From Escherichia phage TR3: a stretch of 44,747 nt of DNA. The notes under the pieces are model-generated. The model had not been told where the DNA came from. It saw nothing but the letters and a program-made list of their open reading frames with translations, and did not search any database. Numbering within the stretch: the stretch's first letter is position 1; every line of letters starts with the position of its first letter. Of the stretch, positions 1,704 through 38,055 are shown in pieces. Position numbers and translations under genes: made by a program. The stretch lies in the sequence record PP069512, one strand, 5' to 3'.

Positions 1704-2071
1704 ATTACTCTCAAATCGAATCATTAATGCGAACGGGAATCAATATCTTTAGTGATGGCGATGGTACGTTTACCATGGAAACTGGTAAAGGTGGGGTGGA
1801 GATTGTCGATGGTGTCGAGGTTCCTGTATCTGGCGGCACTGCATTAATCAAGGGGCTGGTGAGGGAGATTAAAACCAGAGATATTGATGGTGAGTATATT
1901 CAGTTTGGCGATAAGCGTGGAATCTTCACTTCCGAAGTCCCAATCTTACAGGGCTACAGGATTATTGTGGACGATGAAACTTACACTGTAGTCGACCCGA
2001 GACCAGTGAAACCAACAGGTACTGTAGTCGCATACAGGCCAATTCTGAGGAGGATTGCTGCTTATGGCTAA
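1700..2071 (+). CDS. putative head-tail joining protein
   Basis: ATG 1700 overlaps upstream stop (ATGA); track start at 1688 is GTG. Confidence 0.55.
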   Translation: MNYSQIESLMRTGINIFSDGDGTFTMETGKGGVEIVDGVEVPVSGGTALIKGLVREIKTRDIDGEYIQFGDKRGIFTSEVPILQGYRIIVDDETYTVVDPRPVKPTGTVVAYRPILRRIAAYG

Positions 2072-2501
2072 TAATGTTGGTGGCTTAGCTACATTCACGA
2101 ACTCTATCAATGACTGGATTTCAAGAGCTGATGATGGTTTTTCTGAAATTGTTTCAGGCACTGTAATTAAAGCAGCTAACGCCATTGTTGATTTATCTCC
2201 TGTTGATACTGGTAGGTTTAAGGCTAACTGGCAGATTACAGCAAACTCACCAGCAGTACAGTCGTTAAATGATTACGACAAGACTGGCGGTGATACAAAA
2301 AGGTACCTTGCAAGACAAGCCAGAGCAGTAGCTAACTCACCAGCAACAAAGGTTATCTACATAACCAACAGGCTAGATTATGCGTCAGATCTTGAATACG
2401 GTGCATCGCAGCAAGCGCCAGCAGGTGTACTTGGTGTAGTTAATATCAGACTTGGTCGATACTTTGAGGAAGCCGTTGCTGAAGCGAGGAGTAAACGATA
2501 A
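2064..2501 (+). CDS. putative neck / tail completion protein
   Basis: ATG 2064 preceded by RBS GAGGAGG; overlaps upstream stop. Confidence 0.55.
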   Translation: MANNVGGLATFTNSINDWISRADDGFSEIVSGTVIKAANAIVDLSPVDTGRFKANWQITANSPAVQSLNDYDKTGGDTKRYLARQARAVANSPATKVIYITNRLDYASDLEYGASQQAPAGVLGVVNIRLGRYFEEAVAEARSKR

Positions 2502-2899
2502 TGCAGTATGAGCTATCTTTAGCATCAAGGAGGTTTGTGACTGATTTGGTTAAAACGTTTCCAGTCAGGTATCCAATCTCCTACGAAAACGTAGCATTCT
2601 CTCCTCCAAGTAATGGCGGTATGTGGCTGAAGTACGACTACACTGAGGCCGATACCGTAACCTATAGCTTGAGTCGCAAGTGCAAATACTATGTCGGCAT
2701 GGTTCAGGTCTCTGTATTTTTCTCACCAGGTGATGGTGTTGATAGCGCAAGGAGGTTGGCGAATCAATTGGCAGAATCAATGCTTGATGGTACAATGCTT
2801 GACACAGGCTACATTTATGAGGGCGGAGTAGTTCACCCGGTAGTGAAGTCAAAATCTGGCTGGTTTATTCCAGTTCGTTTCTATGTTCGTCTTGACTAA
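2501..2899 (+). CDS. putative tail terminator / completion protein
   Basis: TAATG overlap with upstream gene; lies immediately before major tail protein gene. Confidence 0.55.
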   Translation: MQYELSLASRRFVTDLVKTFPVRYPISYENVAFSPPSNGGMWLKYDYTEADTVTYSLSRKCKYYVGMVQVSVFFSPGDGVDSARRLANQLAESMLDGTMLDTGYIYEGGVVHPVVKSKSGWFIPVRFYVRLD

Positions 2900-2910
2900 A
2901 AGGAAAATAT

Positions 2911-3570
2911 ATGGCCCATCTCAGCAATGGCACCCAGGTCTTCGTAGAGGGCACTAGGGGTAATACTATCGACGTAACAGCAATTACCAATGCTGTTGCT
3001 CCTGTTTTAACTTTGTCCGACGCCACAGGTATTGCGCGCGGGGATTACCTGCTGTTCACCAGCTCAGCTTCAACACTTCTGGCTGATAAGCAAGTTCGTG
3101 TCACTGCGGTATCTGGTTCGGACGTAACTGTTGAAGGTATTGATACCTCCAACAACACTAAGTTTCCAGCCGGTTTAACTGGTGAAGTAGTTAAGATTCT
3201 TAGCTGGTTTGAAGTTCCTTGTGTTCAGGATGTATCCACTGACGGCGGCGAACAGCAGTTCGTTAACTTCCAGTGTTTATCTGATGACCGCGAGCAAAAG
3301 ATTCCAACCTATAAGTCTGCGGTAACTAACACCTACACGTTCGCGCACGAATACACCAACCCGGTATATCCGATTCTGCGTAACTATGATGAGTCTGGTC
3401 AGGTTGTTGCTATCCGTCTGTTCGTGCCTCGCGCTAGTGAGATGCGACTTCAGTCTGGCACTATCTCTTTCAACGACACCCCGAGCATTGGTGTTAACGA
3501 AATCGAAACGGTATCCATCGCGGTATCCATCCGTGGTAGGCTGAGTTCTGTGGCTTCTGAGCTAGTATAA
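2911..3570 (+). CDS. major tail protein
   Basis: 219 aa; position between neck genes and tail chaperone; RBS AAGGA; followed by strong terminator. Confidence 0.7.
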   Translation: MAHLSNGTQVFVEGTRGNTIDVTAITNAVAPVLTLSDATGIARGDYLLFTSSASTLLADKQVRVTAVSGSDVTVEGIDTSNNTKFPAGLTGEVVKILSWFEVPCVQDVSTDGGEQQFVNFQCLSDDREQKIPTYKSAVTNTYTFAHEYTNPVYPILRNYDESGQVVAIRLFVPRASEMRLQSGTISFNDTPSIGVNEIETVSIAVSIRGRLSSVASELV

Positions 3571-3575
3571 AATTA

Positions 3576-3597
3576 ACCCTCTTCGGAGGGTTTTTTA
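3576..3597 (+). terminator. intrinsic terminator after major tail gene
   Basis: CCCTC-TTCG-GAGGG hairpin then TTTTTTATT. Confidence 0.7.
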
Positions 3598-3600
3598 TTG

Positions 3601-3644
3601 ATAGCACTTTTTGTTAAAGACGTGTGGCAGGGATTTGCTATTAT
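3601..3644 (+). promoter_or_regulatory. phage promoter box (ATAGCACTTT-TTGTTA, 22-bp spacer, TATTAT)
   Basis: Box at 3601-3616; -10-like TATTAT at 3639-3644; member of repeated motif family. Confidence 0.5.
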
Positions 3645-3683
3645 TACTTTATCGAAACGAGATGGATTATAGAGGTAAGCAAA

Positions 3684-3824
3684 ATGATTTTAATTGGTAT
3701 GCTGACCGCTTTTTTCTATTATGCTACAGGTCTAACCTTTTGGGTATCATTAGGTGCAGCCATAGGCACTTACTTCGTATCTGCTGTGCTTGCTTTAATT
3801 GTGATAGCGCTGCGTAATCGCTAA
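3684..3824 (+). CDS. small membrane protein (46 aa, two hydrophobic segments)
   Basis: ATG 3684 with RBS GAGGT 8 nt upstream; hydrophobic composition; track ORF 3624 has no RBS. Confidence 0.45.
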   Translation: MILIGMLTAFFYYATGLTFWVSLGAAIGTYFVSAVLALIVIALRNR

Positions 3825-3842
3825 AACGAGAGAGAAAACAAA

Positions 3843-4091
3843 ATGAACAACGTTAAAAATATCATCAAACTTACTGCTGCTCTTGGTGCTTTCTACCTGG
3901 CAATTCAGATTGTCAACCCAACTGGTGGCGCAACCGCAAACTCTGATGCAATAAAGTATGAACATGAATTTAATAGTGCATATTCGCATTGTGAAAAAGT
4001 AGCTGGCGATAAGACAAACCAGATTCTGCACTATGGTCGCGAAGTGTGCACCGAAGTTGCTCACAACATTGTAAAAAACGAATCAAAGTAA
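3843..4091 (+). CDS. small protein with N-terminal signal-peptide-like segment (82 aa)
   Basis: Hydrophobic N-terminus LTAALGAFYLAIQIV; two Cys; sits in an insertion between major tail and chaperone genes. Confidence 0.5.
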   Translation: MNNVKNIIKLTAALGAFYLAIQIVNPTGGATANSDAIKYEHEFNSAYSHCEKVAGDKTNQILHYGREVCTEVAHNIVKNESK

Positions 4092-19659: not shown

Positions 19660-19685
19660 CCCCGCCTCCGCGGGGTTTTTGTTTT
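19660..19685. terminator. bidirectional terminator
   Basis: CCCCGC-CTCC-GCGGGG hairpin then TTTTTGTTTT; tailspike stop lies in the T-tract. Confidence 0.7.
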
Positions 19686-22248
19686 ATATTGGATAATTAG
19701 ATACCTTGATGTCAGAAAAAATTGTTGTTCCGGTAAGCGCAGAATCAGCGTCAGATGCAGCTGCCGGAGCTAAAAGTATTTCAACCGCAGCACAATTCGC
19801 ATTAGTCACTGCATATATAAGAGACTTCAATTCCCATGACGAGTTAGGAACTAAAGGTCTGTAAGTATTAACCAGTGCAGCTCCAGATGAATCAAGTTCT
19901 CTGAATATCACAGAGGCGACACTCGAACTACCACTTAGAACATACAAATCAAGATAAACCCAACCTTTTGTCGACGCAAGAATTGTAGCAACACTAAGAG
20001 ACTGAATGCTGGCCCTATTTTTGTCGTTCAATGTAAACGCATATCCGGTTCCCAGGGGCCACGAAGCGCTATCGGTTTTTTCTGGATCAGTGCTTTTGAC
20101 ATTTTTTAACAGTCTGTCGTAATTTAAGTAATTTGGTTTTACTACAGAGTATGGTTTGTTCCCATGGTATGTTATTGAACTGCTAGATACCTTTGTTTTA
20201 CCGTTATTATTATTGACAACGCCTGATAATGTTACATTGTGGCCTGTAGCGACATTGAGGTCATAGGAGTTGTCGTACGACATAGCGGAACCTTGCGTGT
20301 TATCGGTAGGTACTATCTCAGCGAGCGTAGTACCGTCTATTCTACCGCGAACCAGTTCCCATGACACCGCCGCGCCGTTGCAAAACTTAGCCCACACACC
20401 ATCAACAGTGCAATGTGATGTATTTACTAACCTAATGGCACTGTTGTTAACTCGTTCAATACTCGCTGAAAGGATATTTATATAGAGACTTTGATGGTAA
20501 TTAGTTTCGCTTGGATACTTATAATCCGTCACGAAAAGACCTGCTTGACCTGCCCGTGAAGCAGGTGACGCACTGTATCGGAAGCCCTCAATTGTTATAT
20601 GCTCTCCCTGTACTTCCAGGTAGTTCTTTGTGGTCTGGGATGCCCCCGTCTGTACACCTTCGTTTGAAGAAGTGAATACCCCATAGCTAGAACCATCAGT
20701 ACTATGGTGGCAGTCATTCATATCGTATGTTTGACACCCATCAATAATCCAATGCTCACAACCACGCTTAAGATCTGCCAGGGTTCGGTGGCCATTGGCC
20801 GTACTATTACGACATACAATATTTTTAATTGTGTACGTTCCGTAAGGCCCTGGCGCGTCAATAGTTCCATTCATGCATTTGAATGCGTTGAATCCAATCG
20901 CAGTAACTGTTGGGTCTGTACCCTCAGACGAGCAGTTAATATAGCGTATACCGTCAATCTTCCCACCACCTGTGGTATAGCCTTCCCACGCCTCATGAGG
21001 GCAATTTTTAAAGTGACAACCGTTAGCCTCTATATCACGGATAATATTACCGACACCGTCACTGTGCCAGCAAAAAGCGCGAATCAGGTTTTCGGATGGA
21101 GTTGAATACCCACCCTGATACTGACCGTCAAATCCGATATTCTCCAGGCGCGCGAAGGTTAGCCCCGTGGCTGGGTTCTTTCTGGAAAACCAGGCATACA
21201 CACTACCATAGTTACCAGAATACGCAGCACCTAATGCAGTTCTCGTCAGGGTTAATGGTTTGATTGTAGTGTTGAACCTTCCGTTGGATTTCCAGTGGAA
21301 AAAATCTCCAACTCTGACCATACCAGAGAAAACAACCTCTTCAATGCCACTAAAATCTATTGGTAAGCGAAGTGACTCTGATAGATCCTGTATCTCTTGG
21401 ATTATAGAAGAACAATCAACCCCGCTAACAACACCGTATAGTTTTGCTGAAATCACGCCAGAAGAGGATGCGAAATTCCCTATGTGTAACGCTCCTTTTT
21501 CAGATGCAAGCTCACTTCTCAAAGCAGCATCGCCAACACTAACCCACGCCCCTAATTCAATCCCACCAGTGCTATCTGGGGTTGAACCACCTGGAAACGT
21601 CTTTGGCAATGATCCAGTCCATATATAAGACTTAACATCGCTTCCATTGACGTATAAAACCTGCTGATTTTTAGACTCTAGCGTTCCTCCATCTGAGAAG
21701 TTTAAAGTTAATGACCCAGACACAGAATTTGCCGCTGCCTCTGCTCTATCGGCGGCAGATGATGCATTGGTAGCGTTAATTTGTGATGATGATACATCAT
21801 TTGAAACCTGTGTTGCATCACTTGAAACCTGCGCACCAATAGAAACAACATCACCATGCTGAGTGTTTACCTGAGCTACCTTCGATTCAAAATCCGCAGA
21901 GTCAAAGTTGTTAAAAGCATCAACGGCATCTGCAACTTCTGTTTCTCGAGACTGATAATATCGAAGCGTTTCAGCAACATCCTGAGCCAAACCCTGAACG
22001 GTAATCCCATCGTGTGCAAGAATCGCGTAACCAGTTCCGGCAGGAACAGTTTCAGAATTAGGATTATAAACATTAACCTGAGTGTCGCTGATAATTTCTG
22101 AGATAGTGTAAATCTGTACTGGTTCAGTTTTGAAAACAATGGTAGCACCAATGCGAATCAGTGTAAGCGGCGCTTTCCATGTCGTTCCTACGCCAGTTAC
22201 CTCGCCATTCGCGGCTAGCGATGCTGTTCCTAAGTCATAAATTGCCAT
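19684..22248 (-). CDS. tailspike / tail fiber with probable beta-helix polysaccharide depolymerase domain
   Basis: 854 aa from ATG 22248 (RBS GGAGA); Gly/Asn/Thr/Ser-rich repetitive beta-type composition; N-terminal adaptor-like segment. Confidence 0.65.
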   Translation of the reverse strand: MAIYDLGTASLAANGEVTGVGTTWKAPLTLIRIGATIVFKTEPVQIYTISEIISDTQVNVYNPNSETVPAGTGYAILAHDGITVQGLAQDVAETLRYYQSRETEVADAVDAFNNFDSADFESKVAQVNTQHGDVVSIGAQVSSDATQVSNDVSSSQINATNASSAADRAEAAANSVSGSLTLNFSDGGTLESKNQQVLYVNGSDVKSYIWTGSLPKTFPGGSTPDSTGGIELGAWVSVGDAALRSELASEKGALHIGNFASSSGVISAKLYGVVSGVDCSSIIQEIQDLSESLRLPIDFSGIEEVVFSGMVRVGDFFHWKSNGRFNTTIKPLTLTRTALGAAYSGNYGSVYAWFSRKNPATGLTFARLENIGFDGQYQGGYSTPSENLIRAFCWHSDGVGNIIRDIEANGCHFKNCPHEAWEGYTTGGGKIDGIRYINCSSEGTDPTVTAIGFNAFKCMNGTIDAPGPYGTYTIKNIVCRNSTANGHRTLADLKRGCEHWIIDGCQTYDMNDCHHSTDGSSYGVFTSSNEGVQTGASQTTKNYLEVQGEHITIEGFRYSASPASRAGQAGLFVTDYKYPSETNYHQSLYINILSASIERVNNSAIRLVNTSHCTVDGVWAKFCNGAAVSWELVRGRIDGTTLAEIVPTDNTQGSAMSYDNSYDLNVATGHNVTLSGVVNNNNGKTKVSSSSITYHGNKPYSVVKPNYLNYDRLLKNVKSTDPEKTDSASWPLGTGYAFTLNDKNRASIQSLSVATILASTKGWVYLDLYVLSGSSSVASVIFRELDSSGAALVNTYRPLVPNSSWELKSLIYAVTNANCAAVEILLAPAAASDADSALTGTTIFSDIKVSNYPI

Positions 22249-22271
22249 TGTGTAAAGTCTCCATATGTAAA

Positions 22272-22317
22272 ATAGCACGAATTGCTAAAGTGGATTGTAG
22301 CATCTTTCAGGTATAAA
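22272..22317 (+). promoter_or_regulatory. orphan promoter box on + strand between two leftward genes
   Basis: ATAGCACGAATTGCTAAAG at 22272-22290; TATAAA at 22312-22317 (24-bp spacer); no downstream + strand gene. Confidence 0.35.
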
Positions 22318-25888: not shown

Positions 25889-26304
25889 AAGTTACAGACA
25901 AAACTGACTACCTCGAGTTCTATGGCGGCCCGGTGAAGTCATGCCCGAAGGAAGACGACGAACAAATCTTTTGCTCTGATTGGGTTAAGTATAACTATCC
26001 GCAGGTTGTTTACTGGCACACAGTTAATGAATCAATGAAGAGCATTGGTCAGGCAAGGAAAGACCAGGCTAAAGGACTTCTTAAAGGCGTATCAGACTGC
26101 CTATTTCTAATACCTGAGTCATTACGAGGAAGTTATCCATTTGGCGCAATAGAGCTAAAGAGGGCTGGGAAAACACAGGCTAGCCCAGTAAGTGATGAGC
26201 AAAAGTCATTCCTAAAAAGCGTAAGGGAATCAGGCGGTTTCGCAGGAGTTGCCTACGGCAGAGATGGTTTTCTTGCTGCATTCGCAGAGATGATTAGAAA
26301 ATAG
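25885..26304 (+). CDS. VRR-NUC domain nuclease
   Basis: PD-(D/E)XK-like motif VSDCLF...IELKRAGK; ATGA-coupled to helicase gene. Confidence 0.65.
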   Translation: MKVTDKTDYLEFYGGPVKSCPKEDDEQIFCSDWVKYNYPQVVYWHTVNESMKSIGQARKDQAKGLLKGVSDCLFLIPESLRGSYPFGAIELKRAGKTQASPVSDEQKSFLKSVRESGGFAGVAYGRDGFLAAFAEMIRK

Positions 26305-26344
26305 CACGAATTGCTAAAGACGAATTGATGAAGTGGTGTATTAT
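26301..26344 (+). promoter_or_regulatory. phage promoter box (ATAGCACGAATTGCTA, 22-bp spacer, TATTAT)
   Basis: TAG of box is the stop of the VRR-NUC gene; -10-like 26339-26344 in loop of 9-bp inverted repeat. Confidence 0.5.
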
Positions 26345-26382: not shown

Positions 26383-26583
26383 ATGGCTACTATCTATACT
26401 GGAAAATTCTACGAATCACGCAAGACCGGTTACCAATACTCACTTGCTATCACAGATGATGGTTATATTCTTATTGATGTTGAAGATGTTAACTACGCAT
26501 TTGAAGTCAGCCCAACTTACAAAGACGATTTAGAAACTGTTAAAAACGCGTTTGGCGAGAAATTTGATGAGGTATCTGAGTAA
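26383..26583 (+). CDS. hypothetical small acidic protein (66 aa)
   Basis: RBS-like purine tract; first of six coupled small genes. Confidence 0.5.
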   Translation: MATIYTGKFYESRKTGYQYSLAITDDGYILIDVEDVNYAFEVSPTYKDDLETVKNAFGEKFDEVSE

Positions 26584-26804
26584 TGGCGATTTTAACCTTT
26601 GACAAGCAGTGGGAGTTATTTCAGGCAATGGCATCGCAGGAGTTGCACAAGGCTGGATATAAAGGTGATGTTTGGGATTTGGCTCGTTGCCTGGATTATA
26701 GTTTTGAGGAAGATTACTTGCGAACTGATATCGAAACGTGGCGCGACCGAATGGTTGCAGACATTGCAGAGATGAAGAAAGATTGCCCAGAGGATTTTAA
26801 ATAA
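26583..26804 (+). CDS. hypothetical small acidic protein (73 aa)
   Basis: TAATG coupling. Confidence 0.5.
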   Translation: MAILTFDKQWELFQAMASQELHKAGYKGDVWDLARCLDYSFEEDYLRTDIETWRDRMVADIAEMKKDCPEDFK

Positions 26805-26929
26805 TGAAAATCTTAGATAAAGAGATGTTCGAGATTGCACAGGTTTATGCGATTGACGCTGTTAAGAATAATTCACAATGGTCATGGATGTGCGCTCGTG
26901 AATACCTGAAAATGGCATACGGCTTATGA
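26804..26929 (+). CDS. hypothetical small protein (41 aa)
   Basis: Not in track (<60 aa); TAATG coupling upstream and ATGA coupling downstream. Confidence 0.35.
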   Translation: MKILDKEMFEIAQVYAIDAVKNNSQWSWMCAREYLKMAYGL

Positions 26930-27168
26930 TAGTTGAAACAGGAAGGGCCGCGGTATGGACCCACTGCGCAGAGGCTGGGCTTCAGGATGACATTAAGATG
27001 ATATCTAAGTATTTTGATATAAAAGATATCAGCGTTATTTTCAACGGTAAATTTACGTACATGGATGAAAGGCCGCGCAAGTATGTCAGGGTTAAGCCTG
27101 GCGTAACGATAGACACAAATGAGTTCCTGAAAGAGCAGGGATTCAAATTTAAGATAACGAAGGGTTAG
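26926..27168 (+). CDS. hypothetical protein (80 aa)
   Basis: ATGA coupling. Confidence 0.5.
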   Translation: MIVETGRAAVWTHCAEAGLQDDIKMISKYFDIKDISVIFNGKFTYMDERPRKYVRVKPGVTIDTNEFLKEQGFKFKITKG

Positions 27169-27170
27169 TT

Positions 27171-27422
27171 ATGTTTGGATTAGATTTTCAGCCTGAGCAT
27201 TATGATTTGGTGAGTGGGAGTAGTGGTGCTAAGTTTAGGGCGATACCTATTGCTGATTGGTTTCCTCCTGACTATGCGGATGTTAATGCGAAGACGAAGG
27301 ATGGAAAGTGGGTTCAGATTTATTACTCGCCAGCGTGCGGCAATCTCTGCATGACTGACCTGGACGAGAAATTAGCAATTAGTGCGAATTTAATTGATTA
27401 CTGGCTGAAGGAGGTTGTATGA
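27171..27422 (+). CDS. hypothetical protein (83 aa)
   Basis: RBS AAGGG. Confidence 0.5.
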   Translation: MFGLDFQPEHYDLVSGSSGAKFRAIPIADWFPPDYADVNAKTKDGKWVQIYYSPACGNLCMTDLDEKLAISANLIDYWLKEVV

Positions 27423-27496
27423 AGTACGCCGCCCTAGTAGTATTAGTACCACTGTTTAGCTTTACTATCTTATATTTTATCGTGATGAACTAAGGA
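27419..27496 (+). CDS. hydrophobic micropeptide (25 aa)
   Basis: Not in track; MKYAALVVLVPLFSFTILYFIVMN; RBS GGAGG 7 nt upstream; ATGA coupling. Confidence 0.35.
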
Positions 27497-27503
27497 TTTG
27501 AAA

Positions 27504-28637
27504 ATGACAGTAGCAAAGATTACCAACGATCAGCTAATCGAAGAACTTAAAAACGGCATGACTAACAAGGCGATTGCGGAGAAGTACGACATGAACATTC
27601 GCAACGTTGAACTTCGTCGCAGTAAGTTAGCTAAGAGTGGTTTGTTTGGGCATGGCAATGATGGTATCAAGAAGTTAGTGCCGGACGGCTATTTAGTCAA
27701 GGGTACTTCAACCATGATTGATGCGGATGGGAATGAGAAGCTGCGCTGGGTTAAGACGAGCGTTGATAATGAACGCCTTGAAATTATGCTCGAGCAAGCG
27801 CGAGAGGCTTTCTGTTCTGAGTTGCCAAAGTGTGAGGAAGTTAAGCATTCAGGCAAAGATACAAACCCTGACCTAATGACACTGTATCCAATTTTCGACA
27901 TACATATTGGAATGATGGCCCATCGCCACGAGTCTGGTGAAAATTATGACACGGCAACGGCAGAAAAACTAATGGGCTCATACTTTGACCATGCAATATC
28001 AGTTTCGCCAGCTTCAGAAAAGGCAGTCATCCTTGTTGGCGGTGATTATCTCCACTCAGATGGTCTTGAGGCGGTAACTCCAGCTAGTGGCCACTGCCTT
28101 GACCAAGATAGCCGTTACGCTAAGTTAGTCTACATCGCAATTAGATCAATTCGTGGCGCTGTAGAAAAGATGCTTAAAAAGCATAAAAGTGTTGACATTC
28201 AAATTATCGAGGGAAATCATGACCAAAGCGGCATGATCTGGCTTCGGGCTGCGATGGCTGCATTTTATGAAAATGAGAGTCGTGTCTTTGTTGATGTAAG
28301 CCCTGCGATTATGCACAAGACAAGATTTGGCTCAACACTACTTGGCTACACTCATGGTCACACAATGAAGAAAGCGGAAGGTAGACTTGCAGCTATGGCA
28401 ACTGATTACAGGAAAGACTTTGGTGAATGCGAGTTCGTTTATTGCCATTCCGGGCATTTTCACCACGCAACAGTAACAGAGTGCACTCTTGGTATTGACG
28501 AAGTACATCCAGCACTAGCAAGCAAGGATGCGTATGCAGCACGAGGGGGGTGGCGCTCATATCGTCAGGCTGCCGCGATTGTTTATCACAAAGAGTTTGG
28601 CGAGGTTGGTCGTCATATCTATCGACCTGGAATGTAA
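27504..28637 (+). CDS. HTH domain fused to calcineurin-like metallophosphoesterase
   Basis: N-terminal sigma-region-4-like HTH (MTNKAIAEKYDMNIRNVELRRSKL); phosphoesterase motifs DIHIG, GGDYLHSDG, GNHD, GHTH, HSGHFHH; ATG 27504 with RBS AAGGA. Confidence 0.7.
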   Translation: MTVAKITNDQLIEELKNGMTNKAIAEKYDMNIRNVELRRSKLAKSGLFGHGNDGIKKLVPDGYLVKGTSTMIDADGNEKLRWVKTSVDNERLEIMLEQAREAFCSELPKCEEVKHSGKDTNPDLMTLYPIFDIHIGMMAHRHESGENYDTATAEKLMGSYFDHAISVSPASEKAVILVGGDYLHSDGLEAVTPASGHCLDQDSRYAKLVYIAIRSIRGAVEKMLKKHKSVDIQIIEGNHDQSGMIWLRAAMAAFYENESRVFVDVSPAIMHKTRFGSTLLGYTHGHTMKKAEGRLAAMATDYRKDFGECEFVYCHSGHFHHATVTECTLGIDEVHPALASKDAYAARGGWRSYRQAAAIVYHKEFGEVGRHIYRPGM

Positions 28638-28640
28638 TAA

Positions 28641-28684
28641 ATAGCACTTTTTGTTAAGAAATCCCAGAGAAATCTGGGTATATT
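28641..28684 (+). promoter_or_regulatory. phage promoter box (ATAGCACTTT-TTGTTA, 22-bp spacer, TATATT)
   Basis: Spacer holds hairpin CCCAGA-GAAA-TCTGGG. Confidence 0.5.
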
Positions 28685-28714
28685 AATCAAACACAAACGA
28701 GATGGTAAACAAAA

Positions 28715-29263
28715 ATGAAACAACTATATTCAATGATAAAAAAATCAATTAACAATGACTTCAAAGGTAAGCCAGTTTATATTTTTGATTATGACGGAAC
28801 GCTTTCTGACGGGGCTCACAGACTTGATAAGCTCCCAAAAACTGACCCTCACCTTACCGAGTCGTGGATTGAGTTTAACTCACTAAGCAGATTTGATTCT
28901 CCATTTAATGATACGATAAGCGTAATGAATTCGATTTATGATAGCGGCGCATACATAATCATTTTAACAGGAAGGTCTGATCATGTTCTAGATGAGTCAC
29001 TTGATTGGCTTACTAAAAATGGATGCAAATACAACGTAATGGTAATGCGATCAGCTTCGGACAACAGGAAGGATACGATAATTAAAGAGGAATTCTTAAA
29101 TTCAATTGGGATTGAAAGAATTACGGCGGCCTGGGATGATAGCCCGAATGTAATAAATCACTTTAGGTCTCTAGGGATAACCACTTATCAGGTTTGTGAT
29201 TATGGTTATAATGTTCACAGCGGCCTTAAATCTCATGGTGTAGAAAATCTGAATTCTAAATAA
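28715..29263 (+). CDS. HAD-superfamily phosphatase
   Basis: Motif I FDYDGTL; motif II TGR; motif III K...WDDS. Confidence 0.65.
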   Translation: MKQLYSMIKKSINNDFKGKPVYIFDYDGTLSDGAHRLDKLPKTDPHLTESWIEFNSLSRFDSPFNDTISVMNSIYDSGAYIIILTGRSDHVLDESLDWLTKNGCKYNVMVMRSASDNRKDTIIKEEFLNSIGIERITAAWDDSPNVINHFRSLGITTYQVCDYGYNVHSGLKSHGVENLNSK

Positions 29264-29312
29264 ATAAAATCAATGGGGTTTTAAATGGCCCCATTAAAAT
29301 TGAGTAAATAAA

Positions 29313-29867
29313 ATGAAAAAGTTAATCATCCTTAATGGACCCCCAGGTGCTGGAAAAGATACAGTTGCAGATATCATTGTTAAACTTGGAATTTGCAGGG
29401 ATAAGGTTTCTTTCAAATCACCTATGTTTAATGTGGCTAAGAGCATGCTATCAAGCGATGAGTTTGATGGATTTATTAAGAATTACGATGATCGAGAGTA
29501 CAAAGAATCACCACATGAATTTCTTGGTGGAATGACTGTTCGTCAATTTATGATTTGGATTAGCGAATCAGTGATGAAGCCAGTTTTTGGTGATGAAGTT
29601 TTCGGTAAAAGGCTAGCTCAGTCTCTTGGCAATGGTTGCCACATCTGTTCAGATGGTGGATTTGCAAGTGAAATTGAGCCACTAATTGAAAGTGGTGTTG
29701 AGGTTACATTGGTTAGGCTTCATAGACCTGGTTACACTTTCGAAGGAGATAGTAGGTCATACATTAGCGGCCTCTGCGCAAGGGAAATTGATATTGATGT
29801 TATTGAAGGTGATATTAAAATAACTACAGAAAAAGTGATTGATGCAATAAATAGCACGAATCGCTAA
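29313..29867 (+). CDS. P-loop nucleoside-monophosphate-kinase-like protein
   Basis: N-terminal Walker A NGPPGAGKDT, adenylate/dNMP kinase-like. Confidence 0.65.
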   Translation: MKKLIILNGPPGAGKDTVADIIVKLGICRDKVSFKSPMFNVAKSMLSSDEFDGFIKNYDDREYKESPHEFLGGMTVRQFMIWISESVMKPVFGDEVFGKRLAQSLGNGCHICSDGGFASEIEPLIESGVEVTLVRLHRPGYTFEGDSRSYISGLCAREIDIDVIEGDIKITTEKVIDAINSTNR

Positions 29868-29894
29868 ACAATCGCCACAGCAATTAGGTATAAT
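29851..29894 (+). promoter_or_regulatory. phage promoter box (ATAGCACGAATCGCTA, 22-bp spacer, TATAAT)
   Basis: Box overlaps last codons and TAA stop of kinase gene. Confidence 0.5.
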
Positions 29895-29925
29895 CACCAA
29901 ATCGAAAACAACAGAGGATTCAAAA

Positions 29926-30099
29926 ATGACTAAACTATACTGCGTGAAAAACAACTCAAAGACGCTTCCGTTTACTGAGAATCAGCCATACAGCGGCGAG
30001 CATCTTGGTAGCGGTTACTACAAGATTTATGGCGACGATATGACTCACATCCTTGCGCCGATTGATGGCTCTTTGGTGGAATTTATTATCGCAGATTAA
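29926..30099 (+). CDS. hypothetical protein (57 aa)
   Basis: Not in track; RBS AGAGGA 8 nt upstream; followed by strong terminator. Confidence 0.45.
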   Translation: MTKLYCVKNNSKTLPFTENQPYSGEHLGSGYYKIYGDDMTHILAPIDGSLVEFIIAD

Positions 30100-37979: not shown

Positions 37980-38055
37980 GTTCTGCTGGCGTAACAGGAT
38001 AACGCAAAGACCTCCTAAGTCTTAGTTGCTGGTTCGAGTCCAGCGCGGAACACCA
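37980..38055 (+). tRNA. tRNA-Arg (anticodon CCU), CCA encoded
   Basis: Hand-folded cloverleaf: acceptor GTTCTGC/GCGGAAC (one G-U), D stem GCGT/ACGC, anticodon stem AAGAC/GTCTT with loop CU-CCU-AA, T stem GCTGG/CCAGC with loop TTCGAGT, discriminator A + CCA. Confidence 0.85.

What the first reader, a model, noticed from the sequence alone, without database searches (positions are those of the whole stretch)
27504..29867. Contiguous HTH-metallophosphoesterase, HAD phosphatase and NMP-kinase-like genes
Three enzymes acting on phosphate esters sit in a row, each with its own promoter box: a calcineurin-like phosphoesterase with an N-terminal sigma-region-4-like HTH (an unusual fusion), a HAD phosphatase (DYDGT motif), and a P-loop kinase (GPPGAGKDT). 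Possible roles are nucleotide pool conversion, nucleic acid end healing (kinase plus phosphatase as in polynucleotide kinase systems), or degradation of signalling nucleotides from host defence. The sequence alone cannot discriminate.
Basis: partly seen in the sequence, partly recalled or inferred. Interest (0 to 1): 0.6.

Follow-up and report, generated by a model that had tools for sequence, protein, structure and literature searches.

The report
T1-like phage nuclease–phosphatase–dNMP kinase module
Three neighbouring genes of a T1-like coliphage encode a DNA-binding metallo-nuclease-like enzyme, a 3'-phosphatase and a nucleotide kinase; this set is common and already described in these phages, and it most likely recycles DNA into building blocks for phage replication.

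Summary
The three ORFs are real and sit at the stated coordinates. The window matches Escherichia phage TR2 (Drexlerviridae) at 100% identity over the region searched (27400-29900).

- **Gene 1 (27504-28637)** is an HTH fused to a binuclear metallophosphoesterase. All catalytic motifs are invariant. Its nearest folds are DNA exonucleases (PolD DP1, SbcD/Mre11), not protein phosphatases. The fusion is not unusual: the family has more than 4,600 cluster representatives.
- **Gene 2 (28715-29263)** is a stand-alone T4 Pnkp-type HAD 3'-phosphatase with every catalytic residue conserved and no kinase domain. The usual "polynucleotide kinase" label is a misnomer.
- **Gene 3 (29313-29867)** is a T4 gp1-type dNMP kinase by fold and PHROG, not a polynucleotide kinase.

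The order MPE-HAD-kinase recurs in Drexlerviridae and, with overlapping genes, in Kagunavirus. HAD-kinase is the tighter pair (76 of 80 loci).

"A promoter box for each gene" holds for only one gene: the known Drexlerviridae 21-nt repeat precedes the HAD gene and follows the kinase gene.

The likeliest role is DNA breakdown and nucleotide salvage. A 2026 paper already describes this locus and proposes nucleotide supply. End healing is a weaker rival, and degradation of signalling nucleotides has no support. Ordinary finding, low interest.

The parts
26300..26316 (+). Copy of the Drexlerviridae 21-nt repeat (AATAGCACgaaTTGCTA, palindrome TAGCA-N5-TGCTA) at the end of the VRR-NUC gene. It is the nearest upstream box for the small ORFs 26383-27422 and the MPE gene.
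   Evidence: The consensus matches the TLS repeat aaATAGCACnnnTTGnTAAAA (PMC11447400).
27504..28637 (+). HTH-metallophosphoesterase, 377 aa. Layout: HTH at aa 8-44, disordered linker at 50-57, beta-hairpin plus helix at 63-104, MPE core at about 121-377. Predicted DNA nuclease.
28640..28684 (+). Repeat box (AATAGCACtttttGTTAA; palindrome with one mismatch at 28642-28656), a small hairpin at 28663-28678 and a -10-like TATATT at 28679-28684. Probable regulatory or promoter module for HAD plus kinase.
   Evidence: Hairpin dG -9.5 kcal/mol, z -2.65. A homologous single box sits in JulesPiccard, where HAD and kinase are absent from this site.
28715..29263 (+). Stand-alone Pnkp-type HAD (DxDxT) 3'-phosphatase, 182 aa, with no kinase domain.
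   Evidence: PF25109 HAD_PNKP at 61.1 bits against a cutoff of 27.6. phrog_415 at 2.5e-59. BLASTP aligns it to T4 Pnkp residues 141-297, E 9e-9. D25, D27, T29, R36, T85, R87, D120, K124, D141, D142 correspond to T4 D165, D167, T169, R176, S211, R213, D254, K258, D277, D278 and are invariant or nearly so in 73 homologues.
29272..29295 (+). Stem-loop (9 bp, 6-nt loop) in the 49-nt spacer between HAD and kinase. It has no T-run on the + strand and no repeat box. Role unknown.
   Evidence: Fold dG -12.8 kcal/mol, z -2.41.
29313..29867 (+). T4 gp1-type (deoxy)nucleoside monophosphate kinase, 184 aa, P-loop GPPGAGKDT.
29850..29894 (+). Second copy of the repeat box (AATAGCACgaatCGCTAA, 29850-29866) with -35-like TAAACA and -10 TATAAT (29889-29894). 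It sits at the 3' end of the kinase gene and is a promoter-like module for the downstream DUF7244/SH3 gene.
   Evidence: Conserved in SU57, ES and JulesPiccard. A BPROM promoter is annotated at the equivalent site in SU57.
29926..30099 (+). DUF7244 standalone SH3 protein, 57 aa. It is a neighbour and belongs to the lysis-module context, not to the trio.
   Evidence: PF23896 at 7.9e-27. PMC13164509.
30126..30145 (+). Intrinsic terminator closing this transcription block ahead of the holin gene.
   Evidence: Fold dG -17.9 kcal/mol, z -3.4.

Best explanation
The three genes form a DNA-turnover and nucleotide-salvage module of a T1-like phage. The phage has no DNA polymerase of its own, and its relatives are known to destroy the host chromosome.

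1. The HTH-metallophosphoesterase is a stand-alone, DNA-tethered, binuclear-metal nuclease that cuts or resects DNA. The target is most plausibly host DNA, possibly also replication or recombination intermediates.
2. The Pnkp-type HAD enzyme removes 3'-phosphates from DNA ends, 3'-(d)NMPs or 3',5'-bisphosphates. Such groups would otherwise block further exonucleolysis, priming or reuse.
3. The gp1-type kinase converts the resulting 5'-dNMPs into dNDPs. Host nucleoside diphosphate kinase and DNA polymerase III then use these for phage DNA synthesis.

**Shown here:** family and fold assignments, intact catalytic residues, conserved gene order and linkage. I put the family assignments at about 0.9.

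**Inferred:** the substrates, the direction of flux, and that the three enzymes act in one pathway.

HAD plus kinase is the tighter unit. In this phage it is bounded by two copies of the Drexlerviridae 21-nt repeat and is probably co-transcribed. The MPE is a persistent core gene that is physically joined to the pair only in some lineages.
For: **MPE**
- All five metallophosphoesterase motifs are invariant across 69 diverse homologues.
- The weak profile-to-PDB hits in the MPE region are all DNA nucleases: SbcD, Mre11 and P. putida MPE.
- N-terminal HTH domains occur family-wide, and longer members carry extra HTH or winged-HTH domains.

**HAD**
- PF25109 above threshold.
- All T4 Pnkp phosphatase catalytic residues are conserved. 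Residue roles come from PMC3592404, which also shows activity on 3'-TMP.

**Kinase**
- Best fold match is T4 gp1, and it falls in the same PHROG as gp1.

**Linkage**
- HAD and kinase are linked in 76 of 80 loci, and the trio is contiguous in 25 of 80.
- The same order occurs in Webervirus (HAD and kinase overlap by 4 nt), in SU57 and ES, and in Kagunavirus K1ind3 as an overlapping three-gene island between tail genes.

**Biology and precedents**
- T1 and TLS degrade host DNA and reuse the nucleotides, and the genes responsible are unidentified (PMC11447400; bioRxiv 10.64898/2026.03.01.708804).
- In T5, the predicted metallo-phosphatase A1 is necessary and sufficient for host DNA degradation. 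[quoted passage not shown]
- P. putida MPE nuclease leaves a mixture of 3'-PO4 and 3'-OH ends, which gives a reason to pair an MPE nuclease with a 3'-phosphatase (PMC7826289).
- From own knowledge: T4 uses the Mre11/Rad50-like gp46/47 nuclease plus the gp1 kinase for host-DNA reuse.
- PMC13164509 independently proposes a nucleotide-supply role for the PNK and dNMP-kinase genes at this locus.
Against: - No biochemical or genetic data exist for any of the three proteins in this phage group.
- The MPE is not detectably homologous to T5 A1 (hhalign probability 14%), so T5 is only an analogy.
- In T1 and most Tunavirinae the HAD-kinase pair lies far from the MPE (51 of 80 loci), so a three-enzyme pathway is not obligatory.
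- A 3'-phosphatase is not obviously needed if the nuclease yields only 5'-dNMPs with 3'-OH ends.
- E. coli already has dNMP kinases.
- The kinase is only 18% identical to gp1, and hhalign aligns just the first 37 residues, so its substrate is unproven.
Confidence: 0.5

Rival explanations
1. Nucleic-acid end processing and healing. The MPE trims or opens damaged or blocked DNA (or RNA) ends. The HAD enzyme removes 3'-phosphate or 2',3'-cyclic phosphate. The P-loop protein phosphorylates 5'-OH ends. Together they would act as a Pnkp split over separate polypeptides, with a host ligase (LigA or RtcB) sealing the break. The purpose would be to support recombination-dependent replication or to repair damage inflicted by host nucleases.
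For: - The HAD is a bona fide Pnkp-type phosphatase with all catalytic residues.
- HAD and a P-loop kinase are almost always adjacent, which mirrors the two Pnkp activities.
- Clostridium thermocellum Pnkp uses a metallophosphoesterase for end healing (PMC2190708, listed).
- The MPE lies next to helicase, VRR-NUC and recombination genes.
- Its nearest folds, Mre11 and SbcD, are end-processing nucleases.
Against: - Similarity to the T4 Pnkp kinase domain is limited to the Walker A motif.
- No ligase was found in the annotated records or among the ten large non-structural ORFs scanned against Pfam.
- RtcB needs a 3'-P or cyclic-phosphate end, which the phosphatase would destroy (own knowledge).
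Confidence: 0.2
2. The trio is an accident of modular genome architecture, not a pathway. The MPE is a core replication or recombination nuclease sited at the end of the early region. HAD-kinase is an independent, mobile nucleotide-metabolism cassette. In this lineage the cassette landed between the MPE gene and the lysis genes by recombination at the repeated 21-nt box.
For: - Copies of the box flank HAD-kinase at 28640 and 29850. JulesPiccard has MPE, a single box and then DUF7244, without the pair.
- T1-type genomes keep the pair elsewhere, also bounded by boxes (L074).
- Strong mosaicism: in SU57 the MPE is 91% identical, the HAD 41% and the kinase 76%.
- The MPE is persistent in 508 of 522 Drexlerviridae, whereas the position of the kinases varies (PMC13164509).
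Against: - In Kagunavirus, which lacks the box, the three genes overlap and form an isolated island among tail genes. That is hard to explain without selection for co-expression.
- The three genes co-occur genome-wide in Drexlerviridae even when they are not adjacent.
Confidence: 0.15
3. Counter-defence. The MPE (possibly with the HAD enzyme) hydrolyses cyclic nucleotide or oligonucleotide alarm signals of host systems such as CBASS, Pycsar or type III CRISPR.
Against: - Nucleases outrank phosphodiesterases.
- DNA-binding HTH domains are conserved family-wide.
- The gene is a persistent core gene in a fixed position, unlike variable accessory anti-defence genes.
- None of the three had a hit to characterised anti-defence families in the PHROG, Pfam or NCBIfam scans.
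Confidence: 0.05
4. The MPE is a lambda-phosphatase-like protein phosphatase, or mainly a transcription regulator acting through its HTH. In that case it would be unrelated to nucleic-acid cleavage.
For: - It belongs to the calcineurin-like superfamily.
- It has a LuxR/sigma-70 region 4-type HTH.
- TR2 annotates it as a "DNA binding protein".
Against: - The catalytic motifs are strictly invariant, so the enzyme function is under selection.
- The 21-nt palindromic box does not track with the MPE: Kagunavirus-type loci have the MPE but no box.
Confidence: 0.03

Closest known systems
Drexlerviridae locus 'DNA repair exonuclease - PNK - dNMP kinase - (SH3) - pinholin' (PMC13164509, 2026; also TLS Gp09, Gp14 and gp66 in PMC11447400)
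   Same: Same genes, same order and same genomic position upstream of the lysis cassette. Those authors propose the same nucleotide-supply hypothesis for the two kinase-labelled genes.
   Different: - Those papers rely on automatic labels.
- Here the "PNK" is shown to be phosphatase-only.
- The "exonuclease" is shown to be an HTH fusion lacking an SbcC/Rad50 partner.
- This window is one of the rare arrangements that has both the kinases and the SH3 gene (7 instances reported among 522 phages).
Bacteriophage T4 polynucleotide kinase-phosphatase (Pnkp, PseT), C-terminal DxDxT phosphatase domain
   Same: The HAD protein aligns with T4 Pnkp residues 141-297. The nucleophile, general acid, phosphate-binding and Mg2+-binding residues are all conserved. 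It passes Pfam HAD_PNKP.
   Different: It has no N-terminal polynucleotide kinase domain and no partner RNA ligase. It is 24% identical. Its substrate (DNA end, RNA end or mononucleotide) is untested.
Bacteriophage T4 gp1 deoxynucleoside monophosphate kinase (PDB 1DEK)
   Different: It is 184 aa against 241 aa and 18% identical. Profile alignment is confident only over the first 37 residues. Substrate range is unknown.
Mre11/SbcD nucleases and the archaeal PolD DP1 proofreading exonuclease
   Different: - No Rad50/SbcC ATPase and no polymerase partner are encoded.
- There is no room for a C-terminal capping domain.
- It has an N-terminal HTH instead.
- Sequence similarity is not significant.
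Bacteriophage T5 pre-early operon dmp - A1 - A2
   Same: A phage metallo-phosphatase with nuclease-like and proofreading-like structural neighbours, a DxDGT-type nucleotide phosphatase and a DNA-binding function are encoded together. A1 drives host-chromosome degradation.
   Different: - There is no detectable homology. A1 shares only a GNHD-like motif, and Dmp shares only the DxDGT motif.
- T5 disposes of host nucleotides, whereas T1-like phages reuse them and encode a kinase.
- The DNA-binding unit is a separate protein (A2) in T5 and is fused here.
Pseudomonas putida MPE (PdeM), the ligase-associated DNA-damage-response endonuclease
   Same: A monomeric MPE nuclease without a capping domain. 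It generates 3'-PO4 as well as 3'-OH ends, which explains why a 3'-phosphatase might accompany such an enzyme. It is the only MPE model hit in NCBIfam.
   Different: The hit is far below threshold (16.9 bits against 150). PdeM has no HTH and sits in a different operon context (Lhr-Core helicase, Exo, ligase).

Membership tests
Binuclear metallophosphoesterase (calcineurin-like) superfamily | Five metal-binding and catalytic motifs: DxH, GD, GNH(D/E), H, GHxH | tested here: met
   D132-x-H134, G180-D181, N238-H239, H284 and G317-H318-x-H320 are invariant or nearly so in 69 homologues.
Binuclear metallophosphoesterase (calcineurin-like) superfamily | MPE beta-sandwich fold | tested here: met
Binuclear metallophosphoesterase (calcineurin-like) superfamily | Score above the Pfam gathering threshold (Metallophos or Metallophos_2) | tested here: not met
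   16.4 bits against a cutoff of 27 for Metallophos_2. Only 12-13 of 69 homologues reach E<0.01. The clade is too divergent for the Pfam models, so membership rests on motifs and fold.
Mre11/SbcD nuclease family | Partner SMC-like ATPase (Rad50/SbcC) encoded with it | tested here: not met
   None appears in the TR2 or Rao1 annotation or in the Pfam scan of the window's large ORFs.
Mre11/SbcD nuclease family | C-terminal capping domain following the phosphoesterase core | tested here: not met
Mre11/SbcD nuclease family | Mn2+-dependent DNA exo- and endonuclease activity | not testable with these tools
   Needs enzymology.
Archaeal PolD DP1 proofreading subunit | Works with a DP2 catalytic polymerase subunit | tested here: not met
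   No DNA polymerase was found in the annotated records or among the ORFs scanned. T1 and TLS also lack polymerase genes (PMC11447400).
T4 Pnkp-type HAD 3'-phosphatase domain (Pfam PF25109 HAD_PNKP) | Score above the curated threshold | tested here: met
   61.1 bits against a cutoff of 27.6, E 1.7e-16.
T4 Pnkp-type HAD 3'-phosphatase domain (Pfam PF25109 HAD_PNKP) | DxDxT nucleophile and general acid, Ser/Thr and Lys phosphate contacts, Asp Mg2+ ligands, and the two Arg plus Asp254 | tested here: met
   D25, D27, T29, R36, T85, R87, D120, K124, D141 and D142 align with T4 D165, D167, T169, R176, S211, R213, D254, K258, D277 and D278. They are conserved in 72-73 of 73 homologues. Roles of D165, D167, S211, K258 and D278 come from PMC3592404. 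The essentiality of R176, R213, D254 and D277 is recalled from memory of the Shuman-lab mutagenesis papers and was not verified in the library.
Bifunctional polynucleotide kinase-phosphatase (T4 Pnkp as a whole) | N-terminal P-loop polynucleotide 5'-kinase domain in the same polypeptide | tested here: not met
   The protein is 182 aa and aligns only with T4 residues 141-297. It hits phrog_415, which the T4 phosphatase domain alone also hits. The "polynucleotide kinase" annotation is therefore a misnomer.
Polynucleotide 5'-kinase (T4 Pnkp kinase domain) for the P-loop protein | Similarity beyond the Walker A motif, and a fold closest to polynucleotide kinases | tested here: not met
T4 gp1-type dNMP kinase (PHROG 139) | Same remote-homology family as T4 gp1 | tested here: met
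   The window kinase hits phrog_139 at E 2.1e-44 over profile positions 82-256. T4 gp1 hits phrog_139 at E 1.8e-65 over profile positions 83-261.
T4 gp1-type dNMP kinase (PHROG 139) | Fold closest to gp1 over the whole length | tested here: met
T4 gp1-type dNMP kinase (PHROG 139) | Direct profile-sequence alignment across the NMP-binding and lid regions | tested here: inconclusive
   hhalign gives probability 42% and aligns only residues 3-40.
T4 gp1-type dNMP kinase (PHROG 139) | Phosphorylation of dNMPs | not testable with these tools
   Needs enzymology.
T5 A1 host-DNA-degradation metallo-phosphatase | Detectable homology to A1 | tested here: not met
   hhalign probability 14%, with 19 columns around the GNHD motif.
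PdeM / P. putida MPE endonuclease (TIGR04123) | Score above the curated threshold | tested here: not met
   16.9 bits against a cutoff of 150.
Drexlerviridae 21-nt direct repeat (TLS 'DR', aaATAGCACnnnTTGnTAAAA) | Consensus sequence, orientation with transcription, intergenic position about 76 nt upstream of start codons | tested here: met
   There are 10 exact AATAGCAC copies against 1.9 expected, all co-oriented with the local genes. 28640 to the ATG at 28715 is 75 nt, and 29850 to the ATG at 29926 is 76 nt. The consensus is from PMC11447400.

The most novel reading that the evidence does not exclude
The HTH-metallophosphoesterase is the long-unidentified nuclease that destroys the host chromosome in T1-like phages. 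It would be a functional analogue of T5 A1 with its DNA-binding partner fused on. Together with the Pnkp-type 3'-phosphatase and the gp1-type kinase it would form a self-contained three-enzyme "DNA to dNDP" salvage operon, portable between siphophage lineages (Drexlerviridae and Guernseyvirinae).
Probability: 0.3. Interest if true: 0.55.

Novelty: already known. Interest (0 to 1): 0.25.

Why it matters
As it stands this is routine phage gene content. The sequence is identical to deposited phages, the genes are annotated in hundreds of genomes, and the arrangement and a nucleotide-supply hypothesis are already published.

Three things still have value:

1. **Annotation.** The gene widely labelled "polynucleotide kinase" in T1-like phages lacks a kinase domain and should be called a Pnkp-type 3'-phosphatase. 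In the phage records looked at, the neighbouring gene carries mixed labels ("ATPase", "dNMP kinase", "phosphomevalonate kinase", "hypothetical protein") and is a gp1-type NMP kinase.
2. **A testable candidate.** Which genes let T1-like phages degrade and recycle the host chromosome is an old open question, and the MPE is a concrete candidate.
3. **A possible shuffling mechanism.** The Drexlerviridae 21-nt repeat bounds the HAD-kinase cassette, which suggests it may serve as a recombination junction for module shuffling.

Tried and rejected
- **Direct sequence search of the MPE against PDB chains.** No hit at E<=1. The profile version gave only sub-significant hits, so classification had to rest on the predicted fold.
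- **Homology between the window MPE and T5 A1, and between the HAD and T5 Dmp.** Only single motifs are shared. Orthology rejected; the analogy is kept.
- **Kinase as the missing Pnkp kinase half.** Rejected on fold ranking and because the match is limited to the P-loop.
- **The MPE's HTH as the binder of the palindromic 21-nt box.** Not supported. Kagunavirus-type loci keep the HTH-MPE but lack the box. It remains untested in Drexlerviridae.
- **Sigma-70 promoter directly upstream of each gene.** The scan gives 24 sites against 15.5 +/- 4.3 expected across 7.5 kb. None is convincing in the spacer upstream of the MPE. SU57's BPROM annotation has none inside the trio.
- **The search for related loci with the MPE alignment.** Failed because there was no sufficiently conserved 7-10-column stretch, so MPE-centred synteny was not sampled independently.
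- **Domain fusions in longer MPE homologues.** Only extra HTH or winged-HTH domains turned up, with no enzymatic fusion partner.
- **Literature on classical T1 genetics.** A link between the T1 host-degradation mutants ("gene 2.5", from my memory) and a sequenced gene was not found in the library.
- **Literature check of Arg176, Arg213 and Asp254 essentiality.** Not found.
- **BFVD viral fold search.** It returned many unnamed phage MPEs, several auto-labelled "DNA polymerase II small subunit". T5 A1 could not be identified among them.


Full report
**What the window is.** The region 27400-29900 is 100% identical to Escherichia phage TR2 and 99.7-99.9% identical to phages Rao1, CY1 and TR1. 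TR2 belongs to Drexlerviridae, Braunvirinae, Christensenvirus, a group of T1-like siphoviruses. In the deposited records they are annotated as "DNA binding protein" or hypothetical, "polynucleotide kinase", and "ATPase" or hypothetical. Upstream lie a helicase, a VRR-NUC nuclease and small ORFs. Downstream lie a 57-aa DUF7244 protein, a terminator, and then the holin, endolysin and spanin genes.

**Gene 1, the HTH-metallophosphoesterase.**
- Pfam sees it only weakly (Metallophos_2, 16.4 bits against a cutoff of 27). It matches PHROG 704, "DNA repair exonuclease", at E 2e-147.
- The family is very large: 2,673 hits in the word-indexed search, 4,649 cluster representatives at 50% identity with 1,061 below 1e-30, and 2,030 phage records by tblastn.
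- In an alignment of 69 diverse members at 30-58% identity, the invariant positions are exactly the metallophosphoesterase motifs: D132-x-H134, G180-D181, N238-H239, H284 and G317-H-x-H320. D200 is also invariant, and H184 and D186 are nearly so. The enzyme is therefore under selection as an active catalyst.
- Members hit many HTH models at the N-terminus, including HTH_8, Sigma70_r4_2, GerE and HTH_1. Longer members add further HTH or winged-HTH domains.
- The AlphaFold model is confident (pLDDT 91.6). It shows a three-helix HTH at residues 8-44, a disordered linker, a beta-hairpin plus helix at 63-104, and an MPE core from about residue 121 to the C-terminus.
- Profile-to-PDB sequence hits are all sub-significant, but in the MPE region they are exclusively DNA nucleases: SbcD, Mre11 and P. 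putida MPE. The only MPE model in NCBIfam that registers is PdeM, far below its cutoff.
- No Rad50/SbcC-type ATPase, DNA polymerase or ligase turned up. The TR2 and Rao1 annotations list none, and a Pfam scan of ten large non-structural ORFs found none.
- I conclude it is a divergent, HTH-tethered, stand-alone member of the nuclease-like part of the MPE superfamily. It is not a member of the Mre11/SbcD or DP1 families proper.

**Gene 2, the HAD protein.**
- It passes Pfam HAD_PNKP (61.1 bits against 27.6) and PHROG 415.
- Its best solved relatives by sequence are the Pnkp1 and T4 Pnkp phosphatase domains.
- BLASTP aligns residues 2-161 with T4 Pnkp residues 141-297, which is the phosphatase domain only (E 9e-9).
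- In a family-aware alignment of 73 homologues plus T4, the T4 residues D165, D167, T169, R176, S211, R213, D254, K258, D277 and D278 correspond to D25, D27, T29, R36, T85, R87, D120, K124, D141 and D142. All are conserved in 72-73 of 73 sequences.
- PMC3592404 defines D165 as the nucleophile, D167 as the general acid-base, S211 and K258 as phosphate contacts and D278 as a Mg2+ ligand. It also notes activity on the mononucleotide 3'-TMP. The essentiality of R176, R213, D254 and D277 is from my memory of the Shuman-lab mutagenesis papers, and I could not verify it in the library.
- The protein has no kinase domain. The T4 phosphatase domain by itself also hits PHROG 415. The widespread annotation "polynucleotide kinase" is therefore wrong for this gene: it is a Pnkp-type 3'-phosphatase.

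**Gene 3, the P-loop protein.**
- Pfam gives only P-loop noise. PHROG 139, "deoxynucleoside monophosphate kinase", matches at 2.1e-44. T4 gp1 falls in the same PHROG over the same profile span.
- Against the T4 Pnkp kinase domain only 19 residues of the Walker A region match.
- Direct profile alignment with gp1 is confident only for the first 37 residues, so the substrate cannot be read from the sequence.
- It is a gp1-type nucleotide kinase by family and fold, and not a polynucleotide kinase.

**Is the row of three more than chance?**
- Among 80 kinase-centred loci from IMG/VR, the HAD gene lies upstream on the same strand in 76. The full MPE-HAD-kinase trio is contiguous in 25. In 51 loci, including T1 itself, the HAD-kinase pair lies away from the MPE.
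- The same order is found in Klebsiella Webervirus IMGroot, where HAD and kinase overlap by 4 nt. It is also found in SU57, with a 2-nt gap, and in phage ES, where the HAD gene is present but unannotated.
- Most tellingly, it is found in Kagunavirus K1ind3 of the Guernseyvirinae. There the three genes overlap each other and form a plus-strand island between minus-strand tail genes.
- The trio is mosaic: in SU57 the MPE is 91% identical, the HAD 41% and the kinase 76%, yet the order is kept.
- The trio is therefore a recurrent module. HAD-kinase is its tight core, and the MPE is a persistent Drexlerviridae gene (508 of 522 genomes, PMC13164509).

**The "promoter boxes".**
- A generic sigma-70 scan gives 24 sites in 7.5 kb against 15.5 +/- 4.3 expected. 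Directly upstream of the three genes it gives only weak matches.
- There is nonetheless a real repeated element. AATAGCAC occurs 10 times in the window against 1.9 +/- 1.3 expected. Its palindromic core TAGCA-N5-TGCTA occurs 16 times with at most one mismatch against 2.05 expected.
- All 10 exact copies point in the direction of the local genes. In most of them the box is followed by about 22 nt, often containing a small hairpin, then a -10-like hexamer and a conserved leader.
- This is the 21-nt direct repeat aaATAGCACnnnTTGnTAAAA already described for phage TLS. That repeat lies about 76 nt upstream of start codons and has no known function (PMC11447400).
- In the finding's region it occurs at 26300 (ahead of the small ORFs and the MPE), at 28640 (75 nt before the HAD start) and at 29850 (76 nt before the DUF7244 start). 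It does not occur in the spacers upstream of the MPE or the kinase.
- The likely transcription units are therefore box, small ORFs, MPE; then box, HAD, kinase; then box, DUF7244, terminator.
- JulesPiccard has MPE, a single box and DUF7244 with no HAD-kinase at that site. In T1 the pair is also bounded by boxes. The HAD-kinase pair looks like a box-bounded cassette.

**What it most likely does.**
- T1-like phages encode no DNA polymerase. They degrade the host chromosome and reuse its nucleotides, and the genes responsible are unidentified (PMC11447400). Host degradation by T1 has been reconfirmed by sequencing.
- In T5, the predicted metallo-phosphatase A1 is necessary and sufficient for host-DNA degradation. 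Its authors describe it as resembling double-strand-break repair nucleases and polymerase proofreading subunits, the same structural neighbours found here. It sits in an operon with the dNMP phosphatase Dmp and the DNA-binding protein A2. There is no detectable homology between the T5 and T1-type proteins, so this is an analogy only.
- In T4 (own knowledge) the Mre11/Rad50-like gp46/47 nuclease and gp1 kinase serve host-DNA reuse.
- An MPE-type nuclease can leave 3'-phosphate ends (P. putida MPE, PMC7826289), which would give the 3'-phosphatase a job.
- The best-supported reading is a DNA-breakdown and nucleotide-salvage module running nuclease, then 3'-phosphatase, then dNMP kinase. I give the pathway 0.5 and the family assignments about 0.9.
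- Rivals are end healing and repair (0.2), mere modular adjacency of independent functions (0.15), hydrolysis of immune signalling nucleotides (0.05), and protein phosphatase or regulator (0.03).

**Novelty and verdict.**
- The sequence is in GenBank and the three families are annotated in hundreds to thousands of phages.
- A 2026 paper explicitly reports that PNK and dNMP kinase genes most often follow the "DNA repair exonuclease" in Drexlerviridae lacking the SH3 gene, and proposes that they extend the replication module by improving nucleotide supply (PMC13164509).
- The finding is therefore already known and ordinary. This analysis adds four things:
  - a corrected identity for the "PNK";
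  - structural placement of the MPE next to DNA exonucleases;
  - evidence that the trio is a portable module in two phage lineages;
  - the observation that the known 21-nt repeat brackets the HAD-kinase cassette.
- The only reading with real interest is that the HTH-MPE is the missing T1 host-DNA-degrading nuclease. That is plausible and untested.

Noticed in passing
window 321, 15578, 16803, 22271, 26300, 28640, 29850, 33906, 34716, 36324 (exact AATAGCAC copies); palindrome-only matches with one mismatch at 3602, 8942, 18462, 23806, 27373, 37212, 38899: An over-represented 21-nt repeat with palindromic core TAGCA-N5-TGCTA. The exact copies are always co-oriented with the local genes, and most are followed after about 22 nt (often with a small hairpin) by a -10-like hexamer and a conserved leader CATCGAAACGA. 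It is the TLS "direct repeat" (PMC11447400), whose function is unknown. The palindrome suggests an operator for a dimeric DNA-binding protein.
   Followed up: partly
window 28640-28660 and 29850-29868; L089 (JulesPiccard) 3738-3822; L074 (T1) 4865 and 6532: Two copies of the repeat bracket the HAD-kinase pair. A relative that lacks the pair at this site has a single copy between the MPE and DUF7244 genes. T1 also has boxes on both sides of its HAD-kinase unit. This suggests the repeat acts as a recombination junction for cassette shuffling, reminiscent of the T4 PeSL promoter stem-loop cassettes (own knowledge).
   Followed up: partly
L090 (Escherichia phage ES, OR466728) 2815-3279: A complete HAD/Pnkp-type phosphatase gene (40% identical to the window's) is unannotated in the deposited record. 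Only a 64-aa ORF is called inside it.
   Followed up: yes
window 28715-29263 and its homologues in the phage records sampled: Systematic misannotation. The phosphatase-only gene is labelled "polynucleotide kinase" or "3'-phosphatase, 5'-polynucleotide kinase". The neighbouring gp1-type kinase is variously labelled "ATPase", "phosphomevalonate kinase" or hypothetical.
   Followed up: yes
window 29926-30099: The DUF7244 standalone SH3 gene is present together with the HAD-kinase pair. PMC13164509 reports this combination in only seven instances among 522 Drexlerviridae.
   Followed up: partly
window 29272-29295: A stable 9-bp hairpin (dG -12.8 kcal/mol) between HAD and kinase. On the minus strand it is followed by a T-rich tract, so it looks like a terminator for the strand that carries no genes here. 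Its role on the + strand (processing site or attenuator) is unknown.
   Followed up: partly
L088 (SU57) compared with window 27504-29867: Sharp mosaic boundaries inside the trio: the MPE is 91% identical, the HAD 41% and the kinase 76%. In ES the figures are 66%, 40% and 89%. Two very different HAD alleles circulate within the same gene order.
   Followed up: partly
window 37980-38055 (+): A single tRNA-Arg (anticodon CCT) gene.
   Followed up: no
window 19684-22278 (-): An 864-aa ORF with a Tail_spike_N domain. TR2 annotates a 499-aa lateral tail protein, apparently the corresponding gene, so the window seems to differ from TR2 in its receptor-binding region despite being identical over the finding.
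   Followed up: no
L091 (Kagunavirus K1ind3) 1889-4055: The MPE-HAD-kinase trio forms an isolated plus-strand island of overlapping genes. It is inserted between minus-strand tail genes (tape measure on one side, a tail protein on the other), which is an unusual location for replication or nucleotide-metabolism genes.
   Followed up: partly
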